Source: Bryobacterales bacterium (lineage in GTDB: Bacteria > Acidobacteriota > Terriglobia > Bryobacterales > UBA6623). From it: 64,000 nt of DNA. How positions within the stretch are numbered: position 1 is the stretch's first letter; every line of letters begins with the position of its first letter. The position numbers and the translations under genes were made by a program. The notes beneath the pieces are model-generated. The model worked only from the letters and a program-made list of their open reading frames with translations, was not told the origin of the DNA and did not search any database. Below are positions 19,165 to 61,517 of the stretch, one piece after another. Location of the stretch: NCBI GenBank assembly GCA_965205085.1, contig OZ242039.1, positions 4,191,845-4,255,844 on the forward strand, given 5' to 3'.

Positions 19165-19237
19165 TGTATCGGCTGGCATCCTGTCCGGTCGCACCGAACG
19201 GGATCGCATCGACTTTCCCCTGCACGGACGGTGACCG

Positions 19238-20407: not shown

Positions 20408-20535
20408 AGTTTGTCCTTGCTCTTTCCACCCGGCGGCCGACTCGGTCCCGCGACAGGATGCCTGGAGCGGCCCCGACCGTACCACACGGAGACTTCTCCG
20501 CCGGTGGCTTCTAACACTTCCGAGGGACTCTCCGC

Positions 20536-23190: not shown

Positions 23191-23197
23191 GGGCACT

Positions 23198-24909: not shown

Positions 24910-24999
24910 TGGCGGAGAGGGAGGGATTCGAACCCTCGTCAGAGTTTCCCCTAAACACGCTTTCCAAGCGTGCGCCTTAAGCCGCTCGGCCACCTCTCC
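24910..24999 (-). tRNA. tRNA-Ser (anticodon GGA), CCA encoded
   Basis: The reverse complement folds as acceptor GGAGAGG/CCTCTCC, D arm GCC-GAGCGGCTTAA-GGC, anticodon stem CACGC/GCGTG with loop TTGGAAA (GGA), a long variable arm, and T arm GAGGG-TTCGAAT-CCCTC, followed by GCCA. Confidence 0.9.
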
Positions 25000-40961: not shown

Positions 40962-41433
40962 CGAGCGCATCATGCGCGAGGCGCTGGGGCTGGCTGCCGG
41001 GGCCGGGCGGGCCGGTGAGGTGCCCGTCGGAGCCGTGGTCGTGCTGGGCGGCAGGATCGTCGGGCGTGGGGCGAATCGTCAGATTCGAGACTCCGACCCG
41101 ACAGCACATGCCGAGATCGTTGCACTCCGCCAGGCCGCCAGGGCGCTCGGTGAGCGCTACCTGCGGGATGCGACCGTCTATTCCACATTGGAGCCGTGTA
41201 CCATGTGCGCGGGAGCCTTGGTAGTCGCGCGCGTTCGTCGACTGGTGTTCGGCTCCAGGGATCTGCGGTTCGGTGCCGTCCGGAGCAAGTTCCGCCTCGC
41301 CGACTCCGACATCCTCAACCACCGGCTCGAGATTTCGGAGGGTGTGCTGGCCAGCGAGTGCCTGGCCCCACTGCGGTCCTTCTTTGCGGACCGCCGGGAT
41401 TCCGGCTGTGCCGGATCGCCAACCGGCGACTGA
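40942..41433 (+). CDS. tadA: tRNA adenosine(34) deaminase
   Basis: ATG 40942 (overlaps the upstream gene end). EVPVGAVVV...PTAHAEIVALRQA...TLEPCTMCAGAL...VFG signatures. Confidence 0.9.
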   Translation: MDPVSIDERIMREALGLAAGAGRAGEVPVGAVVVLGGRIVGRGANRQIRDSDPTAHAEIVALRQAARALGERYLRDATVYSTLEPCTMCAGALVVARVRRLVFGSRDLRFGAVRSKFRLADSDILNHRLEISEGVLASECLAPLRSFFADRRDSGCAGSPTGD

Positions 41434-41597
41434 AGGGCTTGGGCAATCCGCATGATCCTGGTGTCTGGAGCCAGCCGCCAAGCCCCCGTCTTCGGCTGTT
41501 GCGGTACCTATCCTCGTTCCGCGGCCCGGACCATGAGAACCCGGCTGGCACCGATAGTCGATCACAGTTGGATCGGGCGCGAAACTGATCGGGGTGC

Positions 41598-41731
41598 CTA
41601 GTGTTCCGTCACAGGTTGATCTTGGGGTCAACGGCAGCGGACGTACAACTGTTATTGGCAGCAGGTATTTCGCCGTTCACGCTACACCGACCCAAGCCCT
41701 ACCCGCAAATTCGACAGTGACAGAACACTAG
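41598..41731. repeat. 134-nt imperfect long hairpin (MITE- or attC-like element)
   Basis: The outer arms CTAGTGTTCCGTCAC (41598-41612) and GTGACAGAACACTAG (41717-41731) are complementary at 14 of 15 positions. Inner pairings are CTTGGGGTC/GACCCAAG and AACGGC/GCCGTT. Confidence 0.6.
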
Positions 41732-42135
41732 CCCATGTTGAACATTCTCGCTCTGCATGGCAGTTTCAAATTGTTGATCTACGATGTCTTAGCCATGTCA
41801 TGACAACCGTCGCCGTGTGAACTGCGATCTGAGGGGCATAGGTGCCCGCATCCGTGACCGGCGCACCTGCGGCCGATGGGTTCCGGTGAGCATGTCGTCT
41901 GTCTCCAGAACCGGTTCGATATGTCTCGCGAGGGCTGGCCAGCAAGGCTCTCCAGCCCGGTGGCGCTTCAGATTCTTGCAGCCGTCACGGCTCGCGCCGC
42001 TCCACAAGAGACGGTGCGCGGGATACCGCCTCGGTCAGGACCACTGGACAACCCGGCGTCCGCCACCGGACCCCACGATACGCCCCGATCCGCTGCTATA
42101 CTGCCACCTGCGGGTACGGCTCCCGTCGATTCGAC

Positions 42136-42960
42136 ATGGCGCATGACCGCATTATCAGGCAGAGCCCGTTCCCGGCCGTGCTCGAGCCGCCTGCCCCAGT
42201 CTTAGCCGAGGTCATTCACTATCCTGATTCGGACGGTCGCTTCTTGCCGGAAAACCCCCTACAGGCCAGTGCCATCGTCAACTTGCGCGCCGCTCTCACC
42301 CACCACTTCAACGAAGTTCCGAGGGTGGTGCTGCGGGGCGGCATGTTCATGTATTACGAGGAGGGGAATCCGAAGAAGAACATCGCGCCGGACATCTTCG
42401 TGGTGCTGGACCACGATCTGGGGAAGCGGAGGGTGTACAAGATCTGGGAGGAGGGCAAGCCGCCGGACTTCGCGCTGGAGGTGCTCTCGCCGTCGACCCA
42501 TACCCACAACGAAGAGGAGAAGGTGGTGTTGTACGCGCAGCTGGGGATTGGGGAGTACTTCCGGTTCCAGCCGGACCCGGAGAAGCAGGAGCCACGGCTG
42601 GTGGGCCACCGGCTGCACCGGGGGGAGTACCGGGACGTGGAGGCGGAGCCGGGAGGCGGACTGTTGAGTGTGAGTCTGGGGGTGGAGATGCGGGTGGAGG
42701 GGGAGAACGTGCGGGTCCGGGACCCGGTGACCGGGATGGAGTATCCGTGGATGGATGAGATTCCCCGGAACACCAAGGCTGCGGCGCTCCGATTGAAGGC
42801 CGAAGTGGAGGCACGACGTCTCGCAGAGGCCCGGGCGGAGGCCGAAGCAGCCCGGGCGGAGGCTGAAGCGGAGGCGCGACGTCGATCAGAGGCCAGAGCG
42901 GTAACTGCCGAGGCACGGGTAGCGGAACTGGAGGCTCAACTCCGCCAGGCGGGATACTAG
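42136..42960 (+). CDS. Uma2-family (DUF820) endonuclease with Glu/Ala/Arg-rich coiled-coil tail
   Basis: YPDSDGRFLPENPLQA...PDIFVV...KPPDFALEVLSPST...YAQLGIGEYFRFQP is the Uma2/PD-(D/E)xK pattern. The C-terminus is AEARAEAEAARAEAEAEARRRSEARA. Confidence 0.8.
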   Translation: MAHDRIIRQSPFPAVLEPPAPVLAEVIHYPDSDGRFLPENPLQASAIVNLRAALTHHFNEVPRVVLRGGMFMYYEEGNPKKNIAPDIFVVLDHDLGKRRVYKIWEEGKPPDFALEVLSPSTHTHNEEEKVVLYAQLGIGEYFRFQPDPEKQEPRLVGHRLHRGEYRDVEAEPGGGLLSVSLGVEMRVEGENVRVRDPVTGMEYPWMDEIPRNTKAAALRLKAEVEARRLAEARAEAEAARAEAEAEARRRSEARAVTAEARVAELEAQLRQAGY

Positions 42961-42993
42961 TGTTCCGCTACTGAGAGATGCCCGGGTCAACGG
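42957..42993 (+). repeat. second copy of the hairpin left arm, starting at the Uma2 stop codon
   Basis: CTAGTGTTCCGCTACTGAGAGATGCCCGGGTCAACGG versus 41598-41634 CTAGTGTTCCGTCACAGGTTGATCTTGGGGTCAACGG. 27 of 37 positions are identical, with perfect 11-nt and 10-nt end blocks (hand count). Confidence 0.5.
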
Positions 42994-43031
42994 GTTAGCG
43001 TTGGACGTTGGTAAGGGCCAGCCCCTAAATC

Positions 43032-43241
43032 TCACGCTGTCAACGACCAGCCCATCCATTCATCCCGCGTCTCGATCGCCAAGGCCGTTGCGGCGAGGCC
43101 GAACGCACCTGGTACGCCGTGGTCGGATTCGATCAGATCGCGCACGCGCCCCCCGCCATGGAGCACGGTCCCACAAGGATGCTCGTGAAGCATCAGTTCG
43201 TTCCAGGCCAGGCGCTGCTCCGCCGTCGCAATCAAGCTCAA
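43032..43241 (-). pseudogene. DUF4338-domain gene fragment
   Basis: 69-aa ORF with AEQRLAWNELMLHEHPCGTVLHGGGRVRDLIESDHGVPGAFGLAATALAIETRDEWMGWS. It follows the DUF4338 core pattern (W.eLm..HH.lG...G.qlRYli....g.lga.gfsaAa..l..RD.wIGWS). It is bounded by stops on both sides, with no N- or C-terminal remainder. Confidence 0.55.
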
Positions 43242-43406
43242 CTACAACCCCGCCACGGCGGCGATGTTGGCCGTCTCCCCGGAGTCATGGCCCCATCAAG
43301 CCTGTTGCGGGTTTCCACATGCTTGCTGATTCCCAAACATTCTGCCGTCAGCACCATGCGGAAGAAAGCCTCTCCTTGCCGCCAGAAAAAGGTGACATTG
43401 AACAAT

Positions 43407-43620
43407 CCGGGTCTGTTCGCACCGGCGCGTCAAGTCAGGCGCAGATCGCCATGCAGTGGGATTCGCGGCCTCCAGAGTCCTGCTTCCTTACTCGTTTCAG
43501 TTGGACCGTGACCATCTGCCAAGAGGTCACTTACAGAGCAACTGAGCCCGCATGGGAAGCGTTGGCCCTGCTCCCTTTCGACGCCTTCACCGGATGTTCC
43601 CCACCACGCTCCGGCTAGCG
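43407..43620 (+). repeat. copy B of the unclassified repeat (see 16806-16968)
   Basis: The 88-nt core matches 70/88 to the reverse complement of 16881-16968, plus the shared CGCTCCGGCTAGCG block. On the opposite strand both copies end an ORF with TSKEAG(P/L)WRPRIP(A/L)H..L..T followed by TGA at the same aligned position. Confidence 0.6.
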
Positions 43621-43780
43621 ATTGCGAGCCCTCAACCCGCATCCGTTGCTGCCGTCAGAGGGGGCATCCTGCCGGGTTGCTCACCGTCCGCCACTGGTCC
43701 CAAGATCACTGCAAGAGACTCCTCATCACGACCTCCGGCTTAGGGCGTAGATCGACAGATGAGCGCTGAATGATCTGGTT

Positions 43781-44400
43781 ATAATTGGGAGATGCCGGTA
43801 GCACTAGGAAATGCAACAGCGGGCGGAGAGATCTAAGGTCCCGATTGGCCTATCATATGGGAGAAACCGCCATGCCTCGGACTTTCCGCCATCTGCAATA
43901 CGACGAGCGCTGCCAGATCCACGCCTTGCACCAATGGGGAGCCTCGGTCAGCGCCATAGCCGCTCAGTTAAAGCGCCACAAATCCACAGTCTCTCGCGAA
44001 CTCCGGCGCAATACCGGCCCCTCCGGCTATCACCATCAGCAGGCCCAGCAACTAGCCCAAGAGCGTCGGGTCCAGGCCGGCTCCGGCTCCACTGGAGCCC
44101 CGAGCGGGTTGCCGGTCGACTGAAGCGGGGCGGCGGAGGATCTCGGGCACCTTCTCGTGGCCCGACCAGCGGGTTCGCCAGGACTGCGCCCAGGGAGGTT
44201 CGCTGTGCACCTGTCTGCGTCAGCGCGCAGGCCTCAAGGAACATGCCCATGCCCTGCTGCGCCGGCTTGTGACCAGGACCGAGAACCTGTGCACGCTTGA
44301 CCCGCAGCGGCTGCAGGTAGCGACCGACCGGCTCAACCGGCTCCGGCGCAAGGTGCTTGGCTGCCGTACGCTCGGGACCGGCATCGACCCGCCACCCGAC
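43781..44400 (+). mobile_element. IS30-family element remnant: transposase pseudogene with frameshifts and the catalytic core deleted
   Basis: The ATG at 43872 gives MPRTFRHLQYDERCQIHALHQWGASVSAIAAQLKRHKSTVSRELRRNTGPSGYHHQQAQQLAQERR (IS30 HTH). WSPERVAGRLK lies in a second frame and TENLCTLDPQRLQVATDRLNRLRRKVLGCRTLG (IS30 C-terminus) in a third. The GHWEGD/DDE region is absent. Confidence 0.75.
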
Positions 44401-44582
44401 GCCCCCCTTCTCTGCTTGGCGGACCTTGCCCGCCAGCGCCCTGTGGTCCGGGAGCCTTCTCGGGCCCGCTCCGGCTCTTGCATGGCTTCCACACTCGGAT
44501 CTTTGTTTCGACAGCCCCACCTAGTCCGCCGTGCCCTGCTGGCAACTCAACTGCCAACTCGAGCGGCCCTTTTCCCCGCTGC

Positions 44583-44708
44583 CGCATTTCGATGTGCGAT
44601 GGGTATCTCTGCTACACGCCCAAGTACGGCAGTTGGTGGAACGTCGCCGAGTGCGAACTGCGTCATCTGACGCCATCGGTCGCGCTGGGCAGCTGGGTCC
44701 ATCCCTAG
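44583..44708 (+). pseudogene. IS630-family transposase C-terminal fragment
   Basis: YLCYTPKYGSWWNVAECELRHLT resembles the conserved IS630 end (hYTPkHgSWLNmaEiEls.L). Only about 40 codons are present. Confidence 0.4.
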
Positions 44709-44903
44709 ATGACGGCTTGGTCGATGAACGCCAATGCCGGTCAGTGTCGAGTGAATTGACTGACCACGGTTGCCGACGGCCCACGAAACCTTATCGCCGA
44801 TTGCTCCAGAAATTCACAGTAACGGAATACCAAGGTCTTGTAGCTGTGCGATTAGGCTGGCTAGCACAGAGTCATCGTGGATTCGAAAGTCTTGATAGGA
44901 CAC

Positions 44904-47900
44904 TCACTGTGAGCCGGGCTCCCCTTCCGGCTCATCGGCGTACTGGCCGTAACTACGTCCGCAGACACGGGGCTCCCGATGCAGTAGGAGCCGCAGGCGT
45001 TCCAGTTCGGCGGAATCCCAGTCCATTGCAAAGGCCACAGCCTCATCCCACAGCTGGCGAACTTCGCACTCATCATCCCGGAATTGCGGTACTTTCATGT
45101 CTCTCGTCCGCTCCCAGCAGTTGGCTAGCGTCTCGCGGATGCGGTCGCGCTTTACGTCTGGGATGTGGATTTTCTCGGCCTCTGCGGTGCTGTAAGTGGG
45201 GAACTCGAGCTTTCTGCCCGGAGTTCGCATGAGTTGTAGGCGACCCGGTGTCGAGTTAATGAATACTGCAACGGCCTTAGCCTCCAGTGGAGAGAGTCCA
45301 GTTACCGGCATCCAACCGTTACCGACGTATTTCTTGTCGCTGGCGGTGGCAGTGACTCGGGCGGTGTTAGTTGCCTGTCCGGCAGTGATCAGCAAGTATC
45401 CGGCCTTGTCGAGAATCGCGTCGGCCTTGCCTGGCTTCTGCAGACACCAATGCTCATCCGGGACGCTCAGTATTCTCGTTTGTCCGTCAGCACTCTTGGA
45501 CTTCAGTATCGGGAAACTGTCCGGTCCACCGCCTGCTGCGGGCTTGCAAGAGCCCCGTAGCAGTTGGCCTGTCGCGTGCGCCGACAGGCCAACTGCCGAG
45601 ATAGTATGCAAGTCTTCATGGTTTGCGAACTGGCATGCGGCATGGGCAAGATCGGGCGAACGCCAAACAGCAGCTGTCCAGTCACCAGCCTTGATACGTT
45701 CCGCCGGCCAATGAAAAACCTCGCCCCACCCTTCACCGATCGGGCCTTCATTGCAGCCAACAAGGCATTCATGGAAATTCTGGACCTCCGAATCGTCAAT
45801 TGGCAACTTGTCCAGACAGATAATGCGGGTTGGCTGCGTGGGACCGTTGCAATGACGGCGCAGGACTACGATGCTCTCATTGATGTTTGTATGCTGGCTC
45901 AGATTGATCTGGGTCGGATCGTGGCTGGTCAGCACGCTGTGCACATGGTATCTCTGTGCCAGGATTTGACGTTCTGTCAGTCCCGATGACCCCGACAGAG
46001 CGATGGTAGGCTCAATCATGGCGATAACACCGTCGTCCTGCCTTACGCAGTGGTCCGCCAGAGCAACGAATAGTGGCCGGATGGAGTTCTTGTCTACAAA
46101 TTCCATCAGGCTGGGATTGGCATGGACTAGAACGGACTCCATAGTGTCCACGCGTGCTCTCAAGCTCTTCTGGTCCTCTTTGGGAAACTTTTTTCCCATA
46201 TTGGTCCGGTTCGTAAACGGCGGATTCATGATCACTATCCGGGCATCTTTGACTGCCTCTACTGCATCTTCCAGCTCTGCATCATCATCGTAGGTCCAGA
46301 CGGATCGGGAGCCGATTCTGTCGTCGTCTAGGGGAAGACTGCCAGGCCTTGAGACAATAGCTTTCTGGGCCAAGAGCTCCAAGCTCCCAACCGCCTCACC
46401 ATCTCGGTTGTATATCGACCGCCCTGTCGGCAGTGGACCGTAGGGCATGAGGTGAAGCCCCATCCGACGATAGCGAATATGATGGTTGCCTGCTGTTAGT
46501 TGAGATGCAGCCAGTTGCAGCGAAACGGGATTGATGTCCAGCCCGTGGATCGTCCCCTGCACTGCCAGTTTTTGCAACTGGTTGATCTCAATCTCATTGG
46601 CACCGTGTGCAGCAGCTCGGCGCTTCATTTCAGTGAGCATAGCGGTTAGTAACGTTCCACTACCACAGGCCAGATCCACAGTCTGGTGCGCCTCCCAAGT
46701 GCTGGGATCGTTCCAGTCCGCCTCGCCGCAGGCATCCAGAGCGAGGCGAGCAGCGATTGACGCGGCGGTCGGCCTTGTGAAGAACGCGCCGTCGGAGGCT
46801 TGGTTGCCCATGACCCGATTGAACAGCTCCCCCGCATGGTCTGCACCCATGTCAGCGTAGGCCTCGGCGATGCGCTCGGCTTCAGCAAGCACGTGACGCA
46901 GGGCGCGCTCCAAGCCAGCCTTCTTGCCGGTGTTGTCGACAGCCACAATGACATCGACGGCCGGTTTCAGCACGGGGTGGAAGTCGTGATTCATGATGTT
47001 TTGCCATTCCCGTTCCGTGTGACGCAACACATTCGGATCGTTCTTGACTTTCGCAAGATCGCTCACACCTGTGAGCCAGTGGCCCGCAGCGATGCGTTGG
47101 TGCAGCATGGCAGCGTTCATCAATAGCAGAGCAGCGATGGTGCAGCCGTCAGCCTGTTTCTGACGACTCTCGTCTTTCAGTCGGTGCAACTCGAAGTGCT
47201 TATCAAGGTGAGTGGACAGACCATCTTCACTCAAGTGCCGCGCCGCCTCACCGACACTCTCTCTGAGGATGTTCAAGTCTCGCCTGACTCGATTTCCACT
47301 GAGGCCGGACTTAGTTAGCAGGTTTGCGGTGATGCCGCGGCCATTATCTTCCAGTCCGGTGAGTGTTAGCTGGAGCAGCCGCACCGTCCTGCCCTCACTG
47401 CCAGCCTGCCGGGTTTGTCTAGGCCCACGCTGGTAGCTGCGGGGAAGGCGGACGCCCGTCCCCTTGTTAATCATGTCCCTGCCTTTAGCCTTGGTCTTGC
47501 GCATATCTACCTGACCAGGCTTGACATGTACGACAGAGTCCACCCGCATCTCGAAACTGCCATCGTCGTGCTCCTTAGCGGCTATGATCCCTGCCAGTTC
47601 CGGTGGCAACTCGCCGGCATCATTCGACGGACCTTTGGGTGCCTCGTCTACACCAACACTCTCGAGATTGCTCAAGGGGAGGAAGACTTCGGATGCTCGC
47701 CTGCGCCCCTTCAGCACGTCCTCGGCGGCTCTTTGCGCTGCTCCCGGTGCACCGACATGTCCGTAGTACTGGATCCTCCGGCTCTCCTTACTTGCCACTG
47801 CAACGATGTTGGACTCCCTTTCGGGCACCTCAGGTACATACAGTTGCAGGAGCTCGGAGAGCTTGTCCTCGATGCGGCTGTCATGGGCGCGCAGGGCTAC

Positions 47901-49358
47901 CAGGATCTGGCCCAGTTCCGACCAGCCGTCCTCCTTGCTGCTGTGCATCAGCCACCTCTCAGCGTCCACATGAGGCGGGATTATGATCGGACAGATGACA
48001 TAGCCAATCACCTTGTCCTGGGCCGTGCGCATAGCTCGGCCAACAGCCTGAATAACATCAATCGGACTCTTGCGGGGTTCTAGAAACGCAACTGCGCTCA
48101 GGGATGGTGCGTCGGTGCCTTCGCCGAAAATGCCAACATTGACAATGCCAAACGGCTTCGACCCGGTTGCCAAGCCCAACCGATCCTTGGCATTCTCGCG
48201 GCTAGCAACGTTGCTGCTGGCATCCAGATGCATGAGCTTGTACTTGGAGGCTTTCTGTTTAGGGCGGTTGGCATTCAGCCAGCCCTGTACCCACTGCCGC
48301 ACGGTCTCAGACTGCAGGTGTTCAGCCATGGCCTTGGACTTGGCAACCGTGTTCATGAATGCGATACACGACTTCACCAGGACGTCCTCCCCTTCTGGCA
48401 CATTGGTCGTGCCGCCTCCCATCACGAGAGCCAGAGTTAAGCCCTTGAGGAAATCCGAAGTGGTCAGAGGGTTGCGTTTGTTCCCACTCTGTGTCCTGGC
48501 TAGGCGATTGGCCGCTGCGTAGGCATCTGGATCGTTGATACCCAAGGCAATGATGCGGTAATCGGCCAGCCAGCCGTTGTCTACAGCATCCGTGTAGCTC
48601 CGGCGATACAACTCCACTCCGAAGATTGTTTCGTCGTCCATGTTCCGCACAACCCATTTCGGATTGCTGGTCTGCGAGCTGCCGCTCGTGTCATATACCC
48701 GGGGGGTGGCGGTCTGATAGATCCGATACTTCGCTGGGAAACGGCTGTTGTCGTGGCAGACCGTGAAGTCGCGGATGCGTTCCTCTAGCTTGCGGATGCG
48801 CCGTATCCCAGCCGTACGGTGGGCTTCGTCGGCGACCATCACAGTGGCCGTGGTCTTGCTCTTGATCAGTGCTTCGGCTATGCGGTGGCTGCTCTGGTAG
48901 GTGCCTATGATGATGTTGACTTGGTCGTTGCCTGTACCATCGCGAATCCAGGTAGCAATCACAGTGGCCTCGGTTGTAACCGCGCCCTTGATTTCGTTCG
49001 CGCTGACGTTGCTGTTGTCGAGTGTAGGATCCTCATACCGCTTGGCGACGCCTTCCTTTGCGGGGGCGTAGCCGGCGGTATCGTCAGAGCAGACGGCGAG
49101 CACCCGTATCGCTTTTTTGCTCTGCTGGAGGTACTCGCGCCTGATCTGCGCGACTAGCGCGATAGAAGGACACAAGACGACCGACAGTTGGCCCGCCGGT
49201 GTCAGCTTCTCAATGATGCACAGCGAAATTCGAGTCTTGCCGGTGCCGCAAGGCAGGATGATCTTGCCCCGCGCTTGTCCTACTGGCAAACCGCCACTGT
49301 CGGACTTTTCGTGTTGCTGAAGAATGCGGATGCTCTCGTCGATAGCTTCGCGCTGCAT
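44904..49358 (-). CDS. Type ISP-like restriction-modification enzyme, helicase-methyltransferase-TRD portion (1484 aa from the internal ATG; the frame is open upstream through the C-tract)
   Basis: SF2/ResIII helicase motifs: ILPCGTGKT (I), VADEAHRTAG (II, DEAH), RIYQTATPRVY, FGEGTDAPS and QAVGRAMR (VI). The string DEAHRT...FTVCHDNSRFPAKYRIYQTATPR is characteristic of COG4889/Type ISP helicases. N6-adenine MTase motifs: VDLACGSGTLL (I) and IVIMNPPFT (IV). About 440 aa follow, with no recognised motif (TRD-like position). Confidence 0.85.
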   Translation of the reverse strand: MQREAIDESIRILQQHEKSDSGGLPVGQARGKIILPCGTGKTRISLCIIEKLTPAGQLSVVLCPSIALVAQIRREYLQQSKKAIRVLAVCSDDTAGYAPAKEGVAKRYEDPTLDNSNVSANEIKGAVTTEATVIATWIRDGTGNDQVNIIIGTYQSSHRIAEALIKSKTTATVMVADEAHRTAGIRRIRKLEERIRDFTVCHDNSRFPAKYRIYQTATPRVYDTSGSSQTSNPKWVVRNMDDETIFGVELYRRSYTDAVDNGWLADYRIIALGINDPDAYAAANRLARTQSGNKRNPLTTSDFLKGLTLALVMGGGTTNVPEGEDVLVKSCIAFMNTVAKSKAMAEHLQSETVRQWVQGWLNANRPKQKASKYKLMHLDASSNVASRENAKDRLGLATGSKPFGIVNVGIFGEGTDAPSLSAVAFLEPRKSPIDVIQAVGRAMRTAQDKVIGYVICPIIIPPHVDAERWLMHSSKEDGWSELGQILVALRAHDSRIEDKLSELLQLYVPEVPERESNIVAVASKESRRIQYYGHVGAPGAAQRAAEDVLKGRRRASEVFLPLSNLESVGVDEAPKGPSNDAGELPPELAGIIAAKEHDDGSFEMRVDSVVHVKPGQVDMRKTKAKGRDMINKGTGVRLPRSYQRGPRQTRQAGSEGRTVRLLQLTLTGLEDNGRGITANLLTKSGLSGNRVRRDLNILRESVGEAARHLSEDGLSTHLDKHFELHRLKDESRQKQADGCTIAALLLMNAAMLHQRIAAGHWLTGVSDLAKVKNDPNVLRHTEREWQNIMNHDFHPVLKPAVDVIVAVDNTGKKAGLERALRHVLAEAERIAEAYADMGADHAGELFNRVMGNQASDGAFFTRPTAASIAARLALDACGEADWNDPSTWEAHQTVDLACGSGTLLTAMLTEMKRRAAAHGANEIEINQLQKLAVQGTIHGLDINPVSLQLAASQLTAGNHHIRYRRMGLHLMPYGPLPTGRSIYNRDGEAVGSLELLAQKAIVSRPGSLPLDDDRIGSRSVWTYDDDAELEDAVEAVKDARIVIMNPPFTNRTNMGKKFPKEDQKSLRARVDTMESVLVHANPSLMEFVDKNSIRPLFVALADHCVRQDDGVIAMIEPTIALSGSSGLTERQILAQRYHVHSVLTSHDPTQINLSQHTNINESIVVLRRHCNGPTQPTRIICLDKLPIDDSEVQNFHECLVGCNEGPIGEGWGEVFHWPAERIKAGDWTAAVWRSPDLAHAACQFANHEDLHTISAVGLSAHATGQLLRGSCKPAAGGGPDSFPILKSKSADGQTRILSVPDEHWCLQKPGKADAILDKAGYLLITAGQATNTARVTATASDKKYVGNGWMPVTGLSPLEAKAVAVFINSTPGRLQLMRTPGRKLEFPTYSTAEAEKIHIPDVKRDRIRETLANCWERTRDMKVPQFRDDECEVRQLWDEAVAFAMDWDSAELERLRLLLHREPRVCGRSYGQYADEPEGEPGSQ

Positions 49359-49923
49359 CGACGACCGTGATTGTGTTGTTTCTCCACCATGCGGCGCGTC
49401 GTCTGAGCTCTGAAATTCTTGGGGGGGGGGGGGGTAGAGATGCTTCCAGCTGCTGTCGCAGGTCGCTGGCGAAATTGATGAGCTTGACAGGCTTGCCGGT
49501 CATTGACATGGCTTCCTGGGCATTGCCGCTGATCGGGACGGCACCGTTGGTCACCAACCAGCGTTCCGCCCAGAATTCGCTGGCGGACGTGCTGGCGAAG
49601 CTGTCGATTTCGCTCTTGCTGATGGAGTTGCCCTGACCGCTGGCATCTAACCGCCGGGATTTGCATTGGATTGCGATATGCAGGCCGTCGCTTCGACGCA
49701 CCGCGACACAGTCGATTCCCAAATCCTTGCGGGTGGCTTGCGAGAAGTGCTCCTCCCGCTCGGGCCACAAGGCCCAGGAATAGCACTGGGTGATGTCCCA
49801 TTCCCTGATTCGAGGGCCGACGCTCACAGTCAACTTTTCAAGCCACCTGCCATCAGTGGGTTGGGTCGATTGCTTGTCGACCTCAGCTATGGCTTCAGCG
49901 ATAGGGTCTTTTGCCGTGCCCAT
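49210..49923 (-). CDS. Mrr-type (PD-(D/E)xK) nuclease module of the Type ISP-like enzyme, separated from the rest by a frameshift in a C14 tract
   Basis: ATG 49923 is preceded by AGGAG (49936-49932) with an 8-nt spacer. KDLGIDCVAVRRSDGLHIAIQCKSRRL...ISKSEIDSFAS matches the D..(E/Q)xK core GIDlva...G...AIQCK of Type ISP and Mrr-like nucleases. After LEASLPPPPP the frame becomes nonsense (RISELRRRAAWW...) and overlaps the helicase ORF. Confidence 0.75.
   Translation of the reverse strand: MGTAKDPIAEAIAEVDKQSTQPTDGRWLEKLTVSVGPRIREWDITQCYSWALWPEREEHFSQATRKDLGIDCVAVRRSDGLHIAIQCKSRRLDASGQGNSISKSEIDSFASTSASEFWAERWLVTNGAVPISGNAQEAMSMTGKPVKLINFASDLRQQLEASLPPPPPRISELRRRAAWWRNNTITVVDAARSYRREHPHSSATRKVRQWRFASRTSAGQDHPALRHRQDSNFAVHH
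49421..49434. repeat. homopolymer G14 (C14 on the coding strand)
   Basis: Directly counted: ...gaaattctt gggggggggg gggg tagaga. It is the only such long homopolymer noticed in the window. Confidence 0.95.
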
Positions 49924-50574
49924 TCTAATGACTCCTTCGAGATCGGCGGCCCGCTTCAGAACGCGTTCTTGCAGTTCGGACCAACCAGGTTGATGAAGTG
50001 GGGGGCCTTCGCCCCCTCTAAGCGGTTCCCACGATACCAAGCGCCGAACACGCCTCGCAATTGGCTCCGGGGATCGACGAGAGCGTTCGACTACATCGGG
50101 CCATTGCCGGTACCATCGGGGATGCGGCGCGGCAAAGCGTCGGCTGCATGGCGGTGTGTGCCACTGCCTTGTGCGGCAGTACGAGCTGCCGCCGGTCGCC
50201 TCACGGCGACGCTCCCAGTCCGGTTCCTGCCCCGCTTGCCGTGACTGTGGCCAGCTGCGTTCTGCCAGTGGCGGTGGATCGGGCCTCGGGGATCTCAATG
50301 TGCAGATTTCTTCGTACGGACCTTCGCCGGAGTTCGCTGTCTCCGCCGGCGGTGCGAGACTCGACCATGGTGCCCGCGTGCCTCGCCGGCACAGCCTTAT
50401 TCCAGCCATCGCCGCCGGCGACGTTGACATTCTGCGCCTTTTGCCCCAAGAATGATGAATTGGGCCTCTGTCCGATCCGCGCACGACGCGACAGCCGGAC
50501 GCAAGAAGCCCGGAGCCGTCCATCCGCGATCGGATCGCAAGAAGCGTGGCGGCTCCCTTGATCGGAGAAACGAC

Positions 50575-51738
50575 TTGTATCGCGCTGGTACGCAACTCTT
50601 TACGTCCGAGTCTGTAACGGAAGGCCATCCCGACAAGGTCTGCGACAAGATTTCCGATGCGGTGCTGGACGCCGTCCTGGCCGGGGATCCGATGGGTCGT
50701 GTAGCGTGTGAAACGCTGGTCACGACGAACCTCTGCGTCCTTGCCGGGGAAATCCGTACGAATGACATGCCCGACTTCGAATCGATCGCGCGACAGACGA
50801 TCCGCGAGATCGGCTACGGAGACAAGGACTACCTGTTCGATGCCGATTCGTGCCGGGTAAAGACCCATGTTCATACCCAGTCTCGGGACATCGCGATGGG
50901 TGTGGACAACGGTGGTGCGGGCGATCAGGGGCTGATGTTCGGCTTCGCATGCCGCGAGACGGAGGAGCTGATGCCCTTGCCGATCATGCTGGCTCACAAG
51001 CTGGTTCGTCGCCTGACCGAGGTGCGCCGGTCGGGCGAACTGGCCTTCCTGCGGCCCGATGGGAAGTCGCAGGTCACCGTGGAATACGAGGACGGCTCGC
51101 CCACCCGCGTGGATGCAGTCGTGGTCTCGACCCAGCATGACCCGGTTGGAGGGCCGACCCTGTCCGATCAGGCCGAGCTGCGCCAGAAGGTGCGTGAAGT
51201 TGTCATCGACGGCGTCGTACCGAAGGATATGACCGACAGTCGGACGACGTACCACATCAACCCGACCGGCCAGTTCGAGATCGGCGGTCCGCACGGGGAT
51301 GCCGGATTGACCGGACGCAAGATTATCGTCGATACGTACGGCGGGATGGGACGGCACGGCGGTGGCGCGTTCTCCGGCAAGGACCCCACCAAGGTCGATC
51401 GGTCGGCGTGCTACATGGCCCGTCATATCGCCAAGAATCTCGTCGCAGCGGGCCTGGCTTCGCGGTGCGAGGTCCAGCTCGCCTATGCAATCGGCGTTGC
51501 GGAGCCGGTATCGGTCCGGGTCGACACCTATGGTACGGGCGGGCACGTGGACGATTCCCGCCTGGCGGACATCGTGAAGGAGATCTTTCCGCTGACTCCT
51601 TCGCAACTGATCGAGTACCTTGACCTGCGAAGGCCGATCTATCGGGCCACCGCTGCGTACGGGCATTTCGGTCGCACGGAAGGCACCTTCACCTGGGAAC
51701 GGGTCAATCAGGTGCGGGAACTGCAGCGGAAGGCCTGA
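50575..51738 (+). CDS. metK: S-adenosylmethionine synthase
   Basis: The TTG start at 50575 is preceded by GGAG (50564-50567). (M)[39 protein letters not shown] and [16 protein letters not shown] signatures. The ATG at 50452 would add about 40 non-homologous residues. Confidence 0.95.
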
Positions 51739-51780
51739 CCGGGTTCTTCCCTCCAACTCGAAGACGGGAGGTAGTGCGGA

Positions 51781-53265
51781 ATGTCCGCAGTCGAAACGAT
51801 GCCGGAGATGTCGCTTGAGGAAACATCGGGCGACACTCGATTCAGGGTCAAGGACATCGGCCTGGCCACATTCGGACGAGACGAGATTCGGCTGGCCGAG
51901 CATGAGATGCCCGGATTGATGGCGCTGCGCGCCGAGTACGAGGGCGAGCGCCCGCTGACGGGTGCCCGTATCGCCGGTTCGCTGCATATGACCGTCCAGA
52001 CAGCCGTGTTGATCGAGACATTGGTGCAGCTCGGGGCGGAGGTCCGCTGGGCGTCTTGCAACATTTTCTCGACCCAGGACCACGCCGCCGCAGCCGTGGC
52101 CGTCGGACCTGAGGGCACGCCGGACCGACCCTGCGGAGTGCCTGTGTTCGCGTGGAAAGGCGAAACGCTCGAAGAGTACTGGTGGGCCACGTCACAGATC
52201 CTGCTCTGGCCGGGAGGCACGGGCCCAAACCTGATCCTCGATGACGGGGGCGATGCCACGTTGATGGTCCATCTGGGCCTCAAGTTCGAGCAGCTCGGAG
52301 GCGTCCCCGATCCGTTGGCCGCCAGCTCGGAAGAGGAAGCCGTGATCTTCCGGACGCTCGCGGCCCTGCAAAGGGAGCGGGGCCACGTTTGGGGGGATGT
52401 TGCTCCCGGCATTCGCGGAGTCTCGGAAGAGACCACCACCGGAGTTCACAGGCTGTACCAGCGCCAGCGCGACGGCTCGCTGCTGTTCCCGGCTATCAAC
52501 GTCAACGACTCGGTTACGAAGTCCAAGTTTGACAACCTCTACGGCTGCCGCCATTCGCTGGTCGATGGGATTAACCGGGGAACAGACATCATGATCGGTG
52601 GCAAGGTAGTCGTGGTCTGCGGTTACGGCGACGTGGGCAAGGGGTGCGCACAGTCGGTTCGTGGCCAAGGGGCCAGGGTGATCGTCGCCGAAATCGATCC
52701 GATCTGCGCCCTCCAGGCCGTGATGGAGGGATTCGAGGTGCGGCGGGTGGACGACGTCGTGGATCAGGGGGACATCTTCGTCACCGCAACCGGGAACAGA
52801 CATGTGATCACAGCGACTCACATGTCCCGAATGAAGCATCAGGCCGTCGTCGGGAACATCGGCCATTTCGACAACGAGATCGACATGGCCGGTCTGGCGG
52901 AATTCCCCGGAGTGAGCCGCACGACCATCAAGCCGCAGGTGGACGAGTACCGCTTTCCGGACGGACATTCCGTAATCGTGCTGTCGGAAGGACGTCTCCT
53001 GAACCTCGGCAACGCGACTGGGCACCCGAGCTTCGTGATGTCCTGCAGTTTTACCAATCAGGTCTTGGCCCAGATCGAGTTGCATCGAAACGCGGAGGCC
53101 TACGGCCGTTCGGTTGCGACGCTGCCGAAGACGCTCGACGAGAGAGTCGCAAGGCTCCATTTGGCTGCCCTCGGCGGCGACCTTACGGAACTCAGTCGTG
53201 AGCAGTCCGAGTATCTTGGCATTCCGGTTGAGGGCCCTTTCAAGCCGGAGCACTACCGTTACTGA
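51781..53265 (+). CDS. ahcY: adenosylhomocysteinase
   Basis: [25 protein letters not shown], the NAD-binding [43 protein letters not shown], and the C-terminal PFKPEHYRY. Confidence 0.95.
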
Positions 53266-59891: not shown

Positions 59892-61517
59892 CTATCTTTC
59901 CCGCTCCCAGCGGGCCCGTTCCGTTGCGACCAGCAGGCCCACTGCGCCGCCACGGGCGTCGGTCCCGAGGATCGCCTCGCGATCGAAGTAGGCGCGTAGG
60001 GATGCTTGCCGGCCTGTGCTTCTGCAGACGTCGACGAGGGTTGCGTCGTTCTTGATTCGCATCTGGACCGCCCGCCACGCCCTGTCGGCCGTTGCCTCGA
60101 ACTCGTTGCGGTCGAGCCAACCTCGTCGCAGACCCCGGGTTAACGCAAATCCGATCATCGCCGTCGAGGTGAACTCGCGGTAGCTCTCGGGTCGGTCGAC
60201 AACCTGGTGCCACATACCGGTCGGATCCTGGTGCCGCTTGACCGCTCGCAGGTGGCTCCGGAACGCCTCCAGCACCTCGCTGTAGCCGGAATCGTCCGGT
60301 GGCCAGTCCGACAGGGACAGCGCCAGTCCCAGGGCGGGGAATCCGTTGCCCCGCCCCCAGGCCGCTTGGTCCAGGGGCGAATGCCTGTAGAGTCCGTCCC
60401 GACGGAGATCAAGCGACTGCATGAACCGCAGATGTCGCAGCGCCATGCGGTAGTACCGCCTGTCGCCGGTCAGGCTTCCGATCTGAGTCAGGATGGGGCA
60501 GCCCATGAAGACCGAGTCGCTCATCCCGTTGTGGAACGGCATGGATGCCTTCATCGAGCCGTCGGGCTGGAATCCGAGACCGGCAGCGGTCCGAGCCGCT
60601 TGCAAGTAGGCGGGCCTCTCGGTTCTCCTGAACAGTTCCCCGAACACCAGACGGCCGGCTAGCGAACTCCCGTTCGCGGGCCCGTCCGAGAGAGAATGCC
60701 CCTCGACATGCGGGCGAACAATGGCCGCCACGTCGGCGAGACGGCTGGTACCGTCCAGATCCCCAAGATGAAGGCGCCCGACGAGTGCGAGCGCAGGAAT
60801 GTAGGTCACTGCATCGAGGGCCTGACCGTAGGCCTGTTCCAGGACCGCTGCCGTCTGGACGGGAGTCCGCGCGAGGCGCGACCGCAATTCGCGGCGTGCC
60901 GGCGATGCGGTCAGGTCGCGGGCAAGGGTGTCCAGGTGGTCCAGGGCGTCGTCACGGAGATCATTCAGGTGTCGGCTCTCCCCGGAAAGCCGCAAGACAG
61001 CGGCAGGGATCCGCCCGACGCCAGCCGGAATCGCACCCCGCTTGAGCGCTGTTGCAAGATTGCTGGAACTCTGGTCGGTCCGCAGGTCCACCACGAGGTC
61101 GGGACCCAGCATGCCAATCATGCGCCACACGTACTGGGATTCCACGAACGGCCCCCGATAGGCTGGACCCGCCGGAGGAAAATCCTCGTTTGGCTCGCGG
61201 TCCGGGAACACATTCAACACGCACGACAACGAGTAGTCGGAGGAGCCGGCACCGCGCACCAGCGCTGCTGCCAGATCGGTCGACTCGGCACGACCATCCA
61301 GGCCCGCCACGATCAGGATGCTTGGGGTCGAACGGTTCGGGTCCAGCACCGCGTCGGTTACCAGAGCGTGGATCGGGCTGCCGGCGGCGGTGACCCCGAC
61401 AGGCATCTCGACCGGCTCCGCACCGGCCAGCAATCCCCAGGCCAACAGCACGCCTGCGGATCTGCGCCCCGCCCTTGCCGAGGCTCCTCGGCGACCCTGG
61501 TCCACAGCCGCGAGCAT
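59892..61517 (-). CDS. GH105/GH88-type unsaturated glycuronyl hydrolase domain with about 230-aa N-terminal extra domain
   Basis: The C-terminal about 300 aa carry MSDSVFMGCPIL, WGRGNGFPALGL, DPTGMWHQVVD and REFTSTAMIGFAL, typical of YteR/UGL-like (alpha/alpha)6 hydrolases. The N-terminal part (ILIVAGLDGRAESTD...) is a separate domain. Confidence 0.7.
   Translation of the reverse strand: MLAAVDQGRRGASARAGRRSAGVLLAWGLLAGAEPVEMPVGVTAAGSPIHALVTDAVLDPNRSTPSILIVAGLDGRAESTDLAAALVRGAGSSDYSLSCVLNVFPDREPNEDFPPAGPAYRGPFVESQYVWRMIGMLGPDLVVDLRTDQSSSNLATALKRGAIPAGVGRIPAAVLRLSGESRHLNDLRDDALDHLDTLARDLTASPARRELRSRLARTPVQTAAVLEQAYGQALDAVTYIPALALVGRLHLGDLDGTSRLADVAAIVRPHVEGHSLSDGPANGSSLAGRLVFGELFRRTERPAYLQAARTAAGLGFQPDGSMKASMPFHNGMSDSVFMGCPILTQIGSLTGDRRYYRMALRHLRFMQSLDLRRDGLYRHSPLDQAAWGRGNGFPALGLALSLSDWPPDDSGYSEVLEAFRSHLRAVKRHQDPTGMWHQVVDRPESYREFTSTAMIGFALTRGLRRGWLDRNEFEATADRAWRAVQMRIKNDATLVDVCRSTGRQASLRAYFDREAILGTDARGGAVGLLVATERARWERER

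What the first reader, a model, noticed from the sequence alone, without database searches (positions are those of the whole stretch)
49210..49923. A C14 homopolymer breaks a Type ISP-like R-M polypeptide exactly at the nuclease-helicase linker
A minus-strand ORF with a strong SD (AGGAG, 8-nt spacer) starts at 49923 and encodes an Mrr-type nuclease core (GIDCVAVRRSDGLHIAIQCKSR). It enters a run of 14 C (plus-strand G14, 49421-49434; read as LPPPPP). It then runs out of frame to a stop at 49210.

The +1 frame is open across the tract (..HLYPPPPQEFQSSDDAPHGGETTQSRSS-MQREAIDES..) and continues as the 1484-aa helicase-MTase ORF. Thirteen or sixteen Cs would give one uninterrupted 44904-49923 gene of 1672 codons plus stop. 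The sole lesion of a 5-kb gene therefore sits in an interdomain Pro linker.

Three readings are possible:
- (a) Homopolymer assembly error.
- (b) Slipped-strand phase variation. This could uncouple the nuclease from a helicase-MTase still translatable from ATG 49358, giving restriction OFF with modification possibly ON.
- (c) +1 ribosomal slippage on CCC-C proline codons, a context known to be frameshift-prone and sensitive to EF-P and tRNA-Pro modification.

Readings (b) and (c) would be an unusual way to regulate a single-chain R-M enzyme.
Basis: partly seen in the sequence, partly recalled or inferred. Interest (0 to 1): 0.8.

Follow-up and report, generated by a model that had tools for sequence, protein, structure and literature searches.

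The report
Poly-C frameshift in a restriction-modification gene
A 5-kb gene for a one-protein restriction-modification enzyme is put out of frame by one base in a run of 14 C. This is a well-known kind of unstable on/off switch, or a sequencing length miscall, and the sequence alone cannot say which.

Summary
A C14 run (G14 on the + strand, 49421-49434) is the only homopolymer longer than 8 in the window. It is the only lesion in a 44904-49923 minus-strand gene. C13 gives a 1672-aa protein and C16 a 1673-aa protein.

The repaired protein has Type ISP architecture:
- An Mrr nuclease with all catalytic residues.
- An SF2 motor that aligns continuously with LlaBIII across the junction.
- A C-terminal half whose predicted fold matches gamma-class N6-adenine methyltransferases with their recognition domains.

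All relatives are at most 66% identical. All listed full-length relatives have nuclease and motor fused in one chain. None of 80 fetched relatives has a homopolymer in this variable linker.

The same gene was not found in any other data set searched, so tract-length variation could not be tested.

My best reading (0.4): the tract is real and hypermutable, and the gene sits in an OFF state that a one-base slip can reverse. Main rivals are a consensus length miscall (0.28) and a recent pseudogene (0.2).

A "restriction OFF, modification ON" state is poorly supported. ATG 49358 has no ribosome-binding site, and its Met is a conserved internal residue. I found no stimulator for programmed +1 frameshifting.

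Poly-C tracts encoding PPPP already switch single-chain Type IIG enzymes in Helicobacter pylori. This is therefore a new member of a known kind.

The parts
49421..49434 (-). C14 homopolymer (G14 on the + strand). It encodes the Pro run of the nuclease-motor linker and is the site of the one-base frame error.
   Evidence: Read directly. It is the longest run in the window, and no shuffle matched it. C13 or C16 restores one ORF.
49932..49936 (-). Shine-Dalgarno-like AGGAG, 8 nt upstream of ATG 49923.
   Evidence: Sequence read.
49435..49923 (-). 5' segment, codons 1-163: Mrr-family nuclease domain. Catalytic residues are E29 (49837-49839), D67 and D71 (49711-49725), and Q86 and K88 (49660-49668).
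   Evidence: Pfam Mrr_cat_2 covers residues 44-152, E 2.3e-13. The segment aligns with the LlaBIII nuclease. The LlaGI catalytic residues E38, D74, D78, Q92 and K94 (PMC2790908) all have counterparts here.
49210..49420 (-). Out-of-frame tail of the 5' ORF in the C14 state: about 70 junk codons ending at TGA 49210-49212.
   Evidence: Translations. The tail has no similarity to the family, whereas the +1 frame of the same DNA does.
49356..49420 (-). Rest of the linker in the downstream frame (QEFQSSDDAPHGGETTQSRSS-M189). ATG 49358 is the first start codon of that frame.
   Evidence: 'APHGGETTQSRSSMQ' aligns with the family's 'PDGEERRQTKTCMQ'. There is no SD within 20 nt upstream.
47826..49355 (-). 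SF2 helicase-like ATPase (motor). Motifs: GTGKT 49233-49247, DEAH 48819-48830, QAVGRAMR 48027-48050.
   Evidence: Pfam ResIII, DEAD and Helicase_C. LlaBIII 4xqk matches at E 2.7e-48 over residues 23-691, and LlaGI 5ffj also matches. Motif coordinates were verified.
44904..47825 (-). C-terminal half (residues 700-1672): connecting region, N6-adenine methyltransferase (DLACGSG 46656-46676, NPPF 46215-46226) and target-recognition region. Stop is TGA 44904-44906.
   Evidence: Pfam N6_Mtase is a weak match only, E 0.0056 and below its cut-off. The AlphaFold2 model has mean pLDDT 64. Foldseek matches are BpuSI (4e-13), CamA, BrxX/PglX, M.BseCI, LlaBIII (6e-7) and M.TaqI.

Best explanation
The locus is a horizontally acquired gene of Type ISP architecture. 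One polypeptide carries an Mrr nuclease, an SF2 translocase, an N6-adenine methyltransferase and a recognition domain.

Its flexible nuclease-motor linker has become a run of CCC proline codons, forming a C14 homopolymer. A G/C run of this length is intrinsically hypermutable by slipped-strand mispairing (established knowledge of contingency loci).

In the assembled sequence the run is one base too long relative to C13, or two bases too short relative to C16. Ribosomes starting at ATG 49923 would therefore make only a 237-aa product: the nuclease domain plus a junk tail. The motor-methyltransferase part is essentially not made. The whole enzyme is OFF, both restriction and modification. A one-base loss to C13, or a gain of two to C16, would turn the whole enzyme back ON.

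What is shown:
- The tract and the frame arithmetic.
- The domain architecture.
- The integrity of everything else in the gene.
- The absence of an expression signal for a separate motor-methyltransferase product.

What is inferred:
- That C14 is the true majority length.
- That the length actually varies in the population.
- That switching matters to the cell.
For: - The tract is real and exceptional for this DNA: 14 against a maximum of 8 elsewhere in the window.
- It is not a by-product of codon usage. CCC makes up only 31% of Pro codons in 27 window genes, and the only other PPP found in those genes or in the 1484-aa ORF is CCGCCACCA.
- The frame error maps to the tract. Family homology runs in the upstream frame to '...QQLEAS' and resumes in the +1 frame at 'APHGGE...'.
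- Everything else is intact. All Mrr, helicase and methyltransferase motifs are present, there is no other stop or frameshift, and the C-terminus matches the short-form half of the family.
- The linker is the most variable and dispensable stretch of the family, so a Pro run is tolerated there. A subset of relatives has lost the Cys motif there, and L046 and L065 have PPP.
- The other window genes checked show no frameshift-like splits. This argues against a generally indel-ridden assembly.
- There are direct precedents. A poly-C/PPPP tract acts as an ON/OFF switch in the H. pylori Type IIG enzymes (PMC3936762). The C. jejuni gene cj0031 is phase-variable, and its tract occurs in only a few strains of a widely present gene (PMC8355987).
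Against: - No tract-length variation could be observed. The gene is a singleton: the best relative is 66% identical, and two exact-pattern scans of JGI metagenomes, one spanning the tract and one of adjacent sequence, found nothing.
- None of 80 relatives has a homopolymer of 8 or more at the linker, so the tract is not a conserved, evidently selected feature.
- Only one long tract occurs in 64 kb, so there is no sign that this organism uses tracts systematically.
- The source is a 5.67-Mb single contig, which probably means a long-read assembly (my inference). Homopolymers of 10 or more are the length class in which long-read consensus is least reliable (PMC9262707).
- Single-lesion inactivation is common in this family even without repeats. 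Five of 80 relatives carry an in-frame nonsense codon inside the gene.
Confidence: 0.4

Rival explanations
1. Consensus length miscall. The real tract is C13 (or C16), the gene is an ordinary intact Type ISP gene, and the frameshift exists only in the assembly.
For: - The break is a single-base length difference in a 14-nt homopolymer and nothing else is wrong with a 5-kb gene.
- The source contig is 5.67 Mb, which suggests long-read assembly (my inference).
- Many relatives come from long-read MAG projects.
- Homopolymers of 10 or more remain problematic at consensus level for nanopore data and are rare in bacteria (PMC9262707).
Against: - The other genes examined in the window show no frameshift-like splits. 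A C8 run inside the gene at 25633-27861 is in frame.
- If the tract is unconstrained, two of every three lengths are out of frame, so a true OFF state is not improbable a priori (my inference).
- The sequencing technology is unknown to me.
Confidence: 0.28
2. Recent pseudogene. The tract slipped once and the gene is simply dead or dying. The tract is an accident of a proline linker, with no selected switching role.
For: - The family is often inactivated by one lesion. Five of 80 relatives have an in-frame nonsense codon inside the gene.
- Many truncated N-terminal fragments sit on megabase-size contigs.
- The tract is unique to this gene.
- The window protein departs from the consensus at 22 of 543 highly conserved columns, against 0-17 (median 4) for other members.
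Against: - That excess is expected for the longest branch in the set: its maximum identity to any other member is 66%, against a median of 81%.
- Most of the substitutions are conservative, and four lie in the dispensable Cys linker.
- No second lesion occurs in 1672 codons.
- A C14 tract reverts readily, so 'dead' and 'OFF' differ only in whether selection acts (my inference).
Confidence: 0.2
3. Restriction OFF, modification ON. In the C14 state a nuclease-less motor-methyltransferase is still made from ATG 49358 (or by low-level slippage) and keeps the genome methylated.
For: - A 1484-aa ORF is open from ATG 49358.
- It starts almost exactly where the crystallised nuclease-deleted LlaGI construct starts: 5ffj chain residue 30 aligns with query residue 214.
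- That deletion mutant is an active translocase (PMC4872093).
- In H. pylori, the C-terminal piece of a broken Type ISP gene (HP0669) is an active methyltransferase when overexpressed (PMC3936762).
Against: - There is no SD-like sequence within 20 nt of ATG 49358; the nearest GGAG is 23 nt upstream.
- M189 is an invariant internal residue of the family, not an evolved start.
- The upstream ORF terminates 146 nt downstream of this ATG, so termination-reinitiation at it is not expected.
- No internal promoter-like site lies near it. The nearest minus-strand hit is at 48007-47980, inside the motor domain.
Confidence: 0.07
4. Recoding at the RNA or ribosome level. Programmed +1 ribosomal frameshifting on CCC-C codons, or RNA-polymerase slippage on the run, yields full-length enzyme from the C14 allele at a regulated level.
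For: - In the 0 frame, four consecutive CCC codons are each followed by C. tRNA-Pro can re-pair in the +1 frame without penalty at such sites.
- CC[C/U]-[C/U] sites give up to about 1% +1 errors in E. coli, and about 8-fold more without m1G37 (PMC4519876).
- A run of five prolines is a stalling context (established knowledge of EF-P).
Against: - Programmed sites work at 30-100% and carry stimulators (PMC4519876). Here no SD-like element lies within a few nt upstream.
- While a CCC codon occupies the P site, the A-site codon is CCC or CCA. The rare AGA codon (5% of Arg codons) enters the A site only when CCA is in the P site, where +1 re-pairing is poor.
- The downstream RNA is not unusually structured (z = -0.65).
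- The site is absent from all 80 relatives.
- A leak of about 1% is an error rate, not a mechanism.
Confidence: 0.05

Closest known systems
[quoted passage not shown]
   Same: - One polypeptide with an N-terminal Mrr nuclease carrying the same catalytic residues.
- An SF2 helicase-like ATPase that aligns continuously over residues 23-691 (E 2.7e-48).
- A C-terminal adenine methyltransferase plus recognition domain with NPPF.
- LlaBIII is recovered by fold search with the C-terminal half.
   Different: - The C-terminal 975 residues have no detectable sequence similarity to LlaGI or LlaBIII. By fold they are closer to BpuSI, CamA and BrxX.
- The gene as assembled is frameshifted.
- Enzyme activity, recognition site and collision-dependent cleavage are untested.
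Phase-variable Type IIG enzymes of Helicobacter pylori (JHP1272 / HP1353-HP1354)
   Same: This is a single-chain R-M enzyme with an N-terminal nuclease, whose reading frame is switched ON/OFF by a poly-C repeat that encodes PPPP (PMC3936762).
   Different: - Those enzymes lack a helicase motor.
- Their tract variation was observed experimentally, and a second tract changes specificity.
- Here there is one tract, no observed variation, and a motor-containing enzyme in a high-GC genome.
Campylobacter jejuni cj0031 (phase-variable Type IIG R-M; phasevarion)
   Same: A G/C homopolymer inside a single-chain R-M gene. The tract is present in only a few strains of a widely present gene family, which indicates high turnover of such tracts (PMC8355987).
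   Different: For cj0031, switching, phage resistance and regulatory effects have been demonstrated. Nothing has been demonstrated here.
Broken Type ISP genes of H. pylori (HP0667-HP0669, JHP0612-0613)
   Same: A Type ISP gene split by frameshift. The C-terminal piece alone can still methylate when overexpressed (PMC3936762).
   Different: Those frameshifts are explicitly not in sequence repeats. Here the frameshift lies in a 14-nt repeat and is therefore readily reversible.

Membership tests
Type ISP restriction-modification enzyme | All functions are carried on one polypeptide (one uninterrupted ORF). | tested here: inconclusive
   This is not met in the sequence as assembled: C14 gives 237-aa and 1484-aa ORFs. 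It is met with C13 or C16. All listed full-length relatives of 1659-1843 aa carry nuclease and motor in one chain.
Type ISP restriction-modification enzyme | N-terminal Mrr-family nuclease with motifs I-III (LlaGI E38, D74, D78, Q92, K94). | tested here: met
   Pfam Mrr_cat_2 matches at E 2.3e-13, above its cut-off. E29, D67, D71, Q86 and K88 align to the LlaBIII residues and are invariant in the family. The motif definition comes from PMC2790908.
Type ISP restriction-modification enzyme | SF2 helicase-like ATPase homologous to the LlaGI/LlaBIII motor. | tested here: met
   ResIII, DEAD and Helicase_C match above their cut-offs. 4xqk matches at E 2.7e-48, or 9.6e-68 with the family profile, and 5ffj at E 8.2e-44. 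GTGKT, DEAH and QAVGRAMR are present.
Type ISP restriction-modification enzyme | Gamma-class N6-adenine methyltransferase followed by a target-recognition domain. | tested here: met
   Motif I (DLACGSG) lies before motif IV (NPPF). Pfam N6_Mtase scores only 16.5 bits, below its cut-off. The predicted fold matches BpuSI, CamA, BrxX, M.BseCI, LlaBIII and M.TaqI with probability 1.00. The model is of moderate quality, pLDDT 64, so this rests on prediction.
Type ISP restriction-modification enzyme | Coupler domain linking the ATPase to the methyltransferase. | tested here: inconclusive
   About 340 residues lie between the helicase C-core and methyltransferase motif I. They show no sequence match to LlaBIII and are partly low-confidence in the model.
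Type ISP restriction-modification enzyme | ATP-driven translocation with cleavage on collision of two enzymes; one-strand m6A at an asymmetric site. | not testable with these tools
   This needs biochemistry or methylome data.
Simple-sequence-repeat phase-variable (contingency) gene | A repeat tract within the reading frame whose length changes shift the frame. | tested here: met
   The C14 tract begins at codon 164. C13 and C16 are in frame; C12, C14, C15 and C17 are out of frame.
Simple-sequence-repeat phase-variable (contingency) gene | Tract length is polymorphic within or between populations. | not testable with these tools
   No reads are available. No other copy of the gene was found: the protein searches gave 66% identity at best, and two exact-pattern scans of JGI metagenomes, one spanning the tract and one of adjacent sequence, gave 0 hits.
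Simple-sequence-repeat phase-variable (contingency) gene | The tract is maintained in related genes or strains (evidence of selection for mutability). | tested here: not met
   None of 80 relatives has a run of 8 or more at the linker. These relatives are distant (55-63% identity), and tracts in known systems can be strain-specific (PMC8355987), so this is weak evidence against.
Programmed +1 ribosomal frameshift site | A slippery P-site codon that allows +1 re-pairing. | tested here: met
   Four CCC codons are each followed by C. The slipperiness of CCC-C is described in PMC4519876.
Programmed +1 ribosomal frameshift site | A stimulatory element (closely spaced upstream SD-like sequence, stop or hungry codon in the A site, or RNA structure) and conservation of the site. 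| tested here: not met
   No such element is present in the sequence. The downstream fold has z = -0.65. The site is absent from relatives.
Decayed pseudogene | Further disabling lesions or loss of catalytic residues. | tested here: not met
   There is no other stop or frameshift, all motifs are intact, and the C-terminus is complete. The excess of substitutions at conserved columns is explained by the long branch.

The most novel reading that the evidence does not exclude
The C14 run is a genuine, selected contingency switch in a motor-driven Type ISP enzyme of an uncultured environmental bacterium. My literature search found no report of a repeat-driven phase-variable Type ISP enzyme. Because the switch sits exactly at the nuclease-motor boundary, the OFF state would still yield some nuclease-less translocase-methyltransferase, by weak internal initiation or by about 1% CCC-C slippage. 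That would give a reversible restriction-minus, modification-plus state in a single-chain enzyme.
Probability: 0.08. Interest if true: 0.65.

Novelty: new member of a known kind. Interest (0 to 1): 0.3.

Why it matters
If the tract really varies, it would extend repeat-driven ON/OFF switching of restriction-modification in two directions. It would move from host-adapted pathogens (Helicobacter, Campylobacter, Neisseria, Haemophilus) to an environmental high-GC bacterium, and from Type I, III and IIG enzymes to the motor-containing single-chain Type ISP class. It would also give a natural handle on the modularity of these enzymes.

If it is a length miscall, the practical lesson is narrower. 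A homopolymer of 10 or more in a long-read assembly should not be annotated as a frameshift or pseudogene without read-level support.

In either case the mechanism class is already well described.

Tried and rejected
1. Orthologues with other tract lengths. The full-length search found only the window's own 1484-aa ORF at 100% identity and then at most 66%. A search with the N-terminal 333 aa across the junction gave nothing above 64%. Exact look-ups of the window proteins found no contig on record. Two DNA-pattern scans of JGI metagenomes, one spanning the tract with variable length and one of adjacent sequence, gave 0 hits.

2. Scrambled linker. I tested whether the divergent linker (loss of the family's CPHC...C motif) results from an older pair of compensating frameshifts. 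None of the three frames of the linker DNA encodes the motif. About 13 relatives lack the Cys residues as well, so this is ordinary linker variability.

3. Second lesion at the C-terminus. Half the family has about 100 extra residues. tblastn found no trace of that extension downstream in the window, and the other half of the family ends where this protein ends.

4. Other frameshifted genes in the window, as a sign of a homopolymer-error-prone assembly. None was found among adjacent same-strand ORF pairs.

5. Insertion-scar repeats flanking the gene. Only short, low-identity matches typical of chance turned up.

6. RNA elements. Rfam found only one tRNA in the window and nothing near the locus. 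The RNA downstream of the tract folds no better than shuffles.

7. Natural two-gene arrangement (separate nuclease and motor-methyltransferase genes). Rejected, because all relatives are fused and family homology crosses the junction by a frame change inside the tract.


Full report
**1. The observation**

The minus strand carries exactly 14 C at 49434-49421. It is the longest homopolymer in the window. The next longest is 8, and only six other runs reach 7. No dinucleotide-preserving shuffle reproduced it.

A minus-strand ORF starts at ATG 49923, preceded by AGGAG with an 8-nt spacer. It enters the run as ...EASLPPPPP and ends out of frame at TGA 49210-49212, giving 237 aa. The +1 frame is open through the run and continues to TGA 44904-44906. 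Its first start codon is ATG 49358, which gives the 1484-aa mechanical ORF.

Editing the run in silico gives one ORF of 1672 codons with C13 and 1673 with C16. C12, C15 and C17 remain broken.

The nuclease frame has no stop upstream as far as 52083. That stretch is antisense to metK/ahcY and to non-coding DNA and is not protein-like. Homologues begin at the same Met.

**2. What the gene is**

The repaired protein matches these Pfam families:
- Mrr_cat_2, residues 44-152.
- ResIII and DEAD, residues 188-408.
- Helicase_C, residues 556-633.
- N6_Mtase, residues 1041-1142, weakly and below its cut-off.

PADLOC's single-chain 'REase_MTase' models align continuously over residues 45-690, across the junction.

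The best solved relatives are the Type ISP enzymes LlaBIII (4xqk, E 2.7e-48, residues 23-691 in one stretch) and LlaGI (5ffj). The family profile raises the LlaBIII match to 9.6e-68.

The LlaGI catalytic residues E38, D74, D78, Q92 and K94 (PMC2790908) correspond to E29, D67, D71, Q86 and K88 here. All are present and invariant in the family. Helicase motifs GTGKT, DEAH and QAVGRAMR, and methyltransferase motifs DLACGSG and NPPF, are intact.

The C-terminal 975 residues have no detectable sequence similarity to LlaGI or LlaBIII. I therefore predicted their structure from a 31-sequence alignment (mean pLDDT 64) and searched the PDB by fold. The hits were BpuSI (Type IIG), CamA, BrxX/PglX, M.BseCI, LlaBIII and M.TaqI, all at probability 1.00. 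This is a gamma-class adenine methyltransferase with its recognition domain.

The architecture is that of a Type ISP enzyme. The methyltransferase half is a divergent module.

**3. Relatives**

A search of 5.8 billion proteins found the window's own 1484-aa ORF (one member, on a 5.67-Mb contig). The next hits were no more than 66% identical. All listed full-length relatives have nuclease and motor fused in one chain, at 1659-1843 aa.

A scan of one genome per species returned 410 loci, of which 80 were fetched. Nearly all are metagenome-assembled genomes from many phyla: Dehalococcoidia, Caldilineaceae, Poribacteria, Entotheonella, Arenicellales, Gemmatimonadota and Cyanobacteria. Many bin names suggest marine-sponge microbiome projects (the sponge origin is my inference from the names).

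The source genome itself was not among them. Its other genes suggest a PVC-group bacterium, which is an inference: a protein with the planctomycete PSD/PSCyt domains, a sulfatase, GH88 and a fucosidase.

The R-M gene has 58% G+C against 63-65% around it. This is consistent with horizontal acquisition.

**4. The linker**

In most relatives the nuclease-motor linker reads ...FTHEECPHCEPNPDGEERRQTKTCMQ..., with four nearly invariant Cys/His positions. About 13 of 80 relatives have lost all of these together and carry acidic or Pro-rich linkers of varying length. Examples are L038 '...QQLEASTVSGEDINSRLDPEYGELLQTKSSMQ', L046 '...GEPPPQTKTSMQ' and L065 '...NLPPPHSD...'. The window protein belongs to this Cys-less subset.

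Family homology runs in the upstream frame to '...QQLEAS' and resumes in the +1 frame at 'APHGGETTQSRSSMQ'. The frame change must therefore occur within about 15 codons that contain the run.

No relative has a homopolymer of 8 or more at this position.

The run is not a by-product of codon usage. CCC makes up 31% of Pro codons in 27 window genes. The only other PPP found in those genes or in the 1484-aa ORF is CCGCCACCA, and L046 spells its PPP as CCGCCACCG.

**5. Is it the only lesion, and is the gene decaying?**

There is no other stop or frameshift. Half of the family has an extra C-terminal domain of about 100 aa. The other half ends where this protein ends, and no trace of the extension lies downstream.

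The window protein departs from the consensus at 22 of 543 highly conserved columns, against 0-17 (median 4) for other members. It is also the longest branch: its best identity to any other member is 66%, against a median of 81%. Four of the 22 changes lie in the dispensable Cys motif, and most of the rest are conservative. This test does not discriminate.

The base rate of single-lesion inactivation in the family is appreciable. Five of 80 relatives have an in-frame nonsense codon inside the gene. The junction-spanning search returned many truncated N-terminal fragments on megabase-size contigs.

**6. The three readings of the first stage**

*(a) Assembly error.* This cannot be excluded. A 5.67-Mb single contig suggests a long-read assembly (my inference). 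Homopolymers of 10 or more are the length class in which consensus is least reliable, and they are rare in bacteria (PMC9262707). Against it, the other genes I examined in the window show no frameshift-like splits, and a C8 run lies in frame in an intact gene.

*(b) Slipped-strand phase variation.* The frame arithmetic fits, and a G/C run of 14 is intrinsically hypermutable (established knowledge). Variation could not be observed, because no other copy of the gene was found in the protein collection or in JGI metagenomes.

The proposed uncoupling into 'restriction OFF, modification ON' is weakly supported:
- ATG 49358 has no SD; the nearest GGAG is 23 nt upstream.
- Its Met is invariant and internal in the family.
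- The upstream ORF ends 146 nt beyond it.
- No promoter-like site lies nearby.

It remains conceivable. The ORF begins almost exactly where the crystallised nuclease-deleted LlaGI begins, and that construct is an active translocase (PMC4872093). In addition, the C-terminal piece of a broken H. pylori Type ISP gene methylates DNA when overexpressed (PMC3936762).

*(c) +1 ribosomal slippage.* Four CCC-C sites are slippery. Unprogrammed CCC-C slippage is about 1% even at its most shift-prone position, whereas programmed sites reach 30-100% and carry stimulators (PMC4519876). I found:
- No closely spaced SD-like element.
- No stop or rare codon in the A site while a CCC codon is in the P site.
- No unusual downstream RNA structure (z = -0.65).
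- No conservation of the site.

It is untestable here.

**7. Comparison with what is known**

Repeat-driven switching of R-M genes is well established for Type I and III systems (PMC12707154). It is also established for single-chain Type IIG enzymes.
- H. pylori JHP1272 / HP1353-1354 are turned ON/OFF by a poly-C repeat that encodes PPPP (PMC3936762).
- C. jejuni cj0031 is phase-variable, and its tract is present in only a few strains of a widespread gene (PMC8355987).

The broken H. pylori Type ISP genes are explicitly not broken at repeats (PMC3936762). My full-text search for 'Type ISP' together with 'phase-variable' returned eight papers. None has both terms in its title or abstract. The one I read in detail (PMC3936762) describes Type ISP frameshifts that are not in repeats, and the passages I checked in a 2025 review do not link Type ISP to phase variation.

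The class of mechanism is therefore known. Its occurrence in a motor-containing Type ISP gene of an environmental high-GC bacterium would be a new instance.

**8. Verdict**

- Observation: confirmed.
- Interpretation: partly supported.
- Most likely (0.4): a real, hypermutable tract with the whole enzyme in a reversible OFF state.
- Consensus miscall: 0.28.
- Recent pseudogene: 0.2.
- Restriction-minus, modification-plus uncoupling: 0.07.
- Programmed recoding: 0.05.
- Interest is modest, at 0.3. The phenomenon is of a familiar kind, and the decisive datum, tract length in the reads, is out of reach here.

Noticed in passing
L001-L080 (relatives of window 44904-49923): This R-M family, at 55-66% identity, occurs in metagenome-assembled genomes of many phyla: Dehalococcoidia, Caldilineaceae, Poribacteria, Entotheonella, Arenicellales, Gemmatimonadota, Cyanobacteria and Acidimicrobiia. 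Many bin names suggest marine-sponge microbiome projects. Some genomes carry two copies (OY763410.1 gives L031 and L076; one isolate gives L023 and L071). This looks like wide horizontal spread within one habitat.
   Followed up: partly
Family alignment A1, columns matching window residues 168-188 (window 49356-49420): Most family members have a nearly invariant Cys-Pro-His-Cys ... Cys motif in the nuclease-motor linker. About 13 of 80 relatives, and the window protein, have lost all of these residues together. The co-loss suggests a small metal-binding or disulfide knuckle that is dispensable. The linker stretch of LlaBIII that aligns here shows no such motif.
   Followed up: partly
L015, L042, L043, L045, L052: Five of 80 relatives carry an in-frame nonsense codon inside an otherwise intact 5-kb gene: TAG in four and TAA in one. 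At least three fall where the family has Gln or Glu. L043 has a second TAG three codons from its end. Many truncated N-terminal fragments also appear on megabase-size contigs.
   Followed up: partly
Family alignment A1, C-terminus (beyond window 44904): Half of the family (25 of 50) has an extra C-terminal domain of about 100 aa, with a conserved '...GGHWFHAL...' segment. It is absent from the window protein and from the other half of the family. Its function is unknown.
   Followed up: no
window 49924-53265: The R-M gene is divergently adjacent to metK (SAM synthetase; true start probably near 50576) and ahcY (SAH hydrolase), the cycle that supplies and recycles its cofactor. The roughly 650-bp spacer has no convincing ORF and no Rfam riboswitch hit. 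The adjacency may be coincidental.
   Followed up: partly
window 41200-44900: The stretch downstream of the R-M gene has few recognisable genes. It holds a Uma2-family putative endonuclease (42136-42960) and several ORFs with no Pfam match. A 37-nt imperfect direct repeat (41598-41634 and 42957-42993, 73% identity) brackets the Uma2 gene and a 109-aa ORF.
   Followed up: no
window 46001-50000: G+C drops to 58% over the R-M gene, against 63-66% in most of the window. AT skew is strongly negative there. This is consistent with foreign origin.
   Followed up: no
L005 9073-9276: One relative has a second, partial copy of the last 68 residues of the gene (71% identity to the query) about 1 kb downstream of the intact gene.
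   Followed up: no
window 4421-4501: ARAGORN calls an 81-nt tRNA-Phe(GAA) here, but Rfam's tRNA model does not reach its threshold. The call overlaps a minus-strand ORF at 4059-4595. The tRNA-Ser(GGA) at 24910-24999 is confirmed by both tools.
   Followed up: no
window 17677-23259 and 59892-63176: Several genes are typical of the Planctomycetota/PVC group and of polysaccharide degraders: a 907-aa protein with PSD2-5/PSCyt3 domains, a sulfatase, GH88 and alpha-L-fucosidase. This hints at the source organism, which I could not identify directly.
   Followed up: partly
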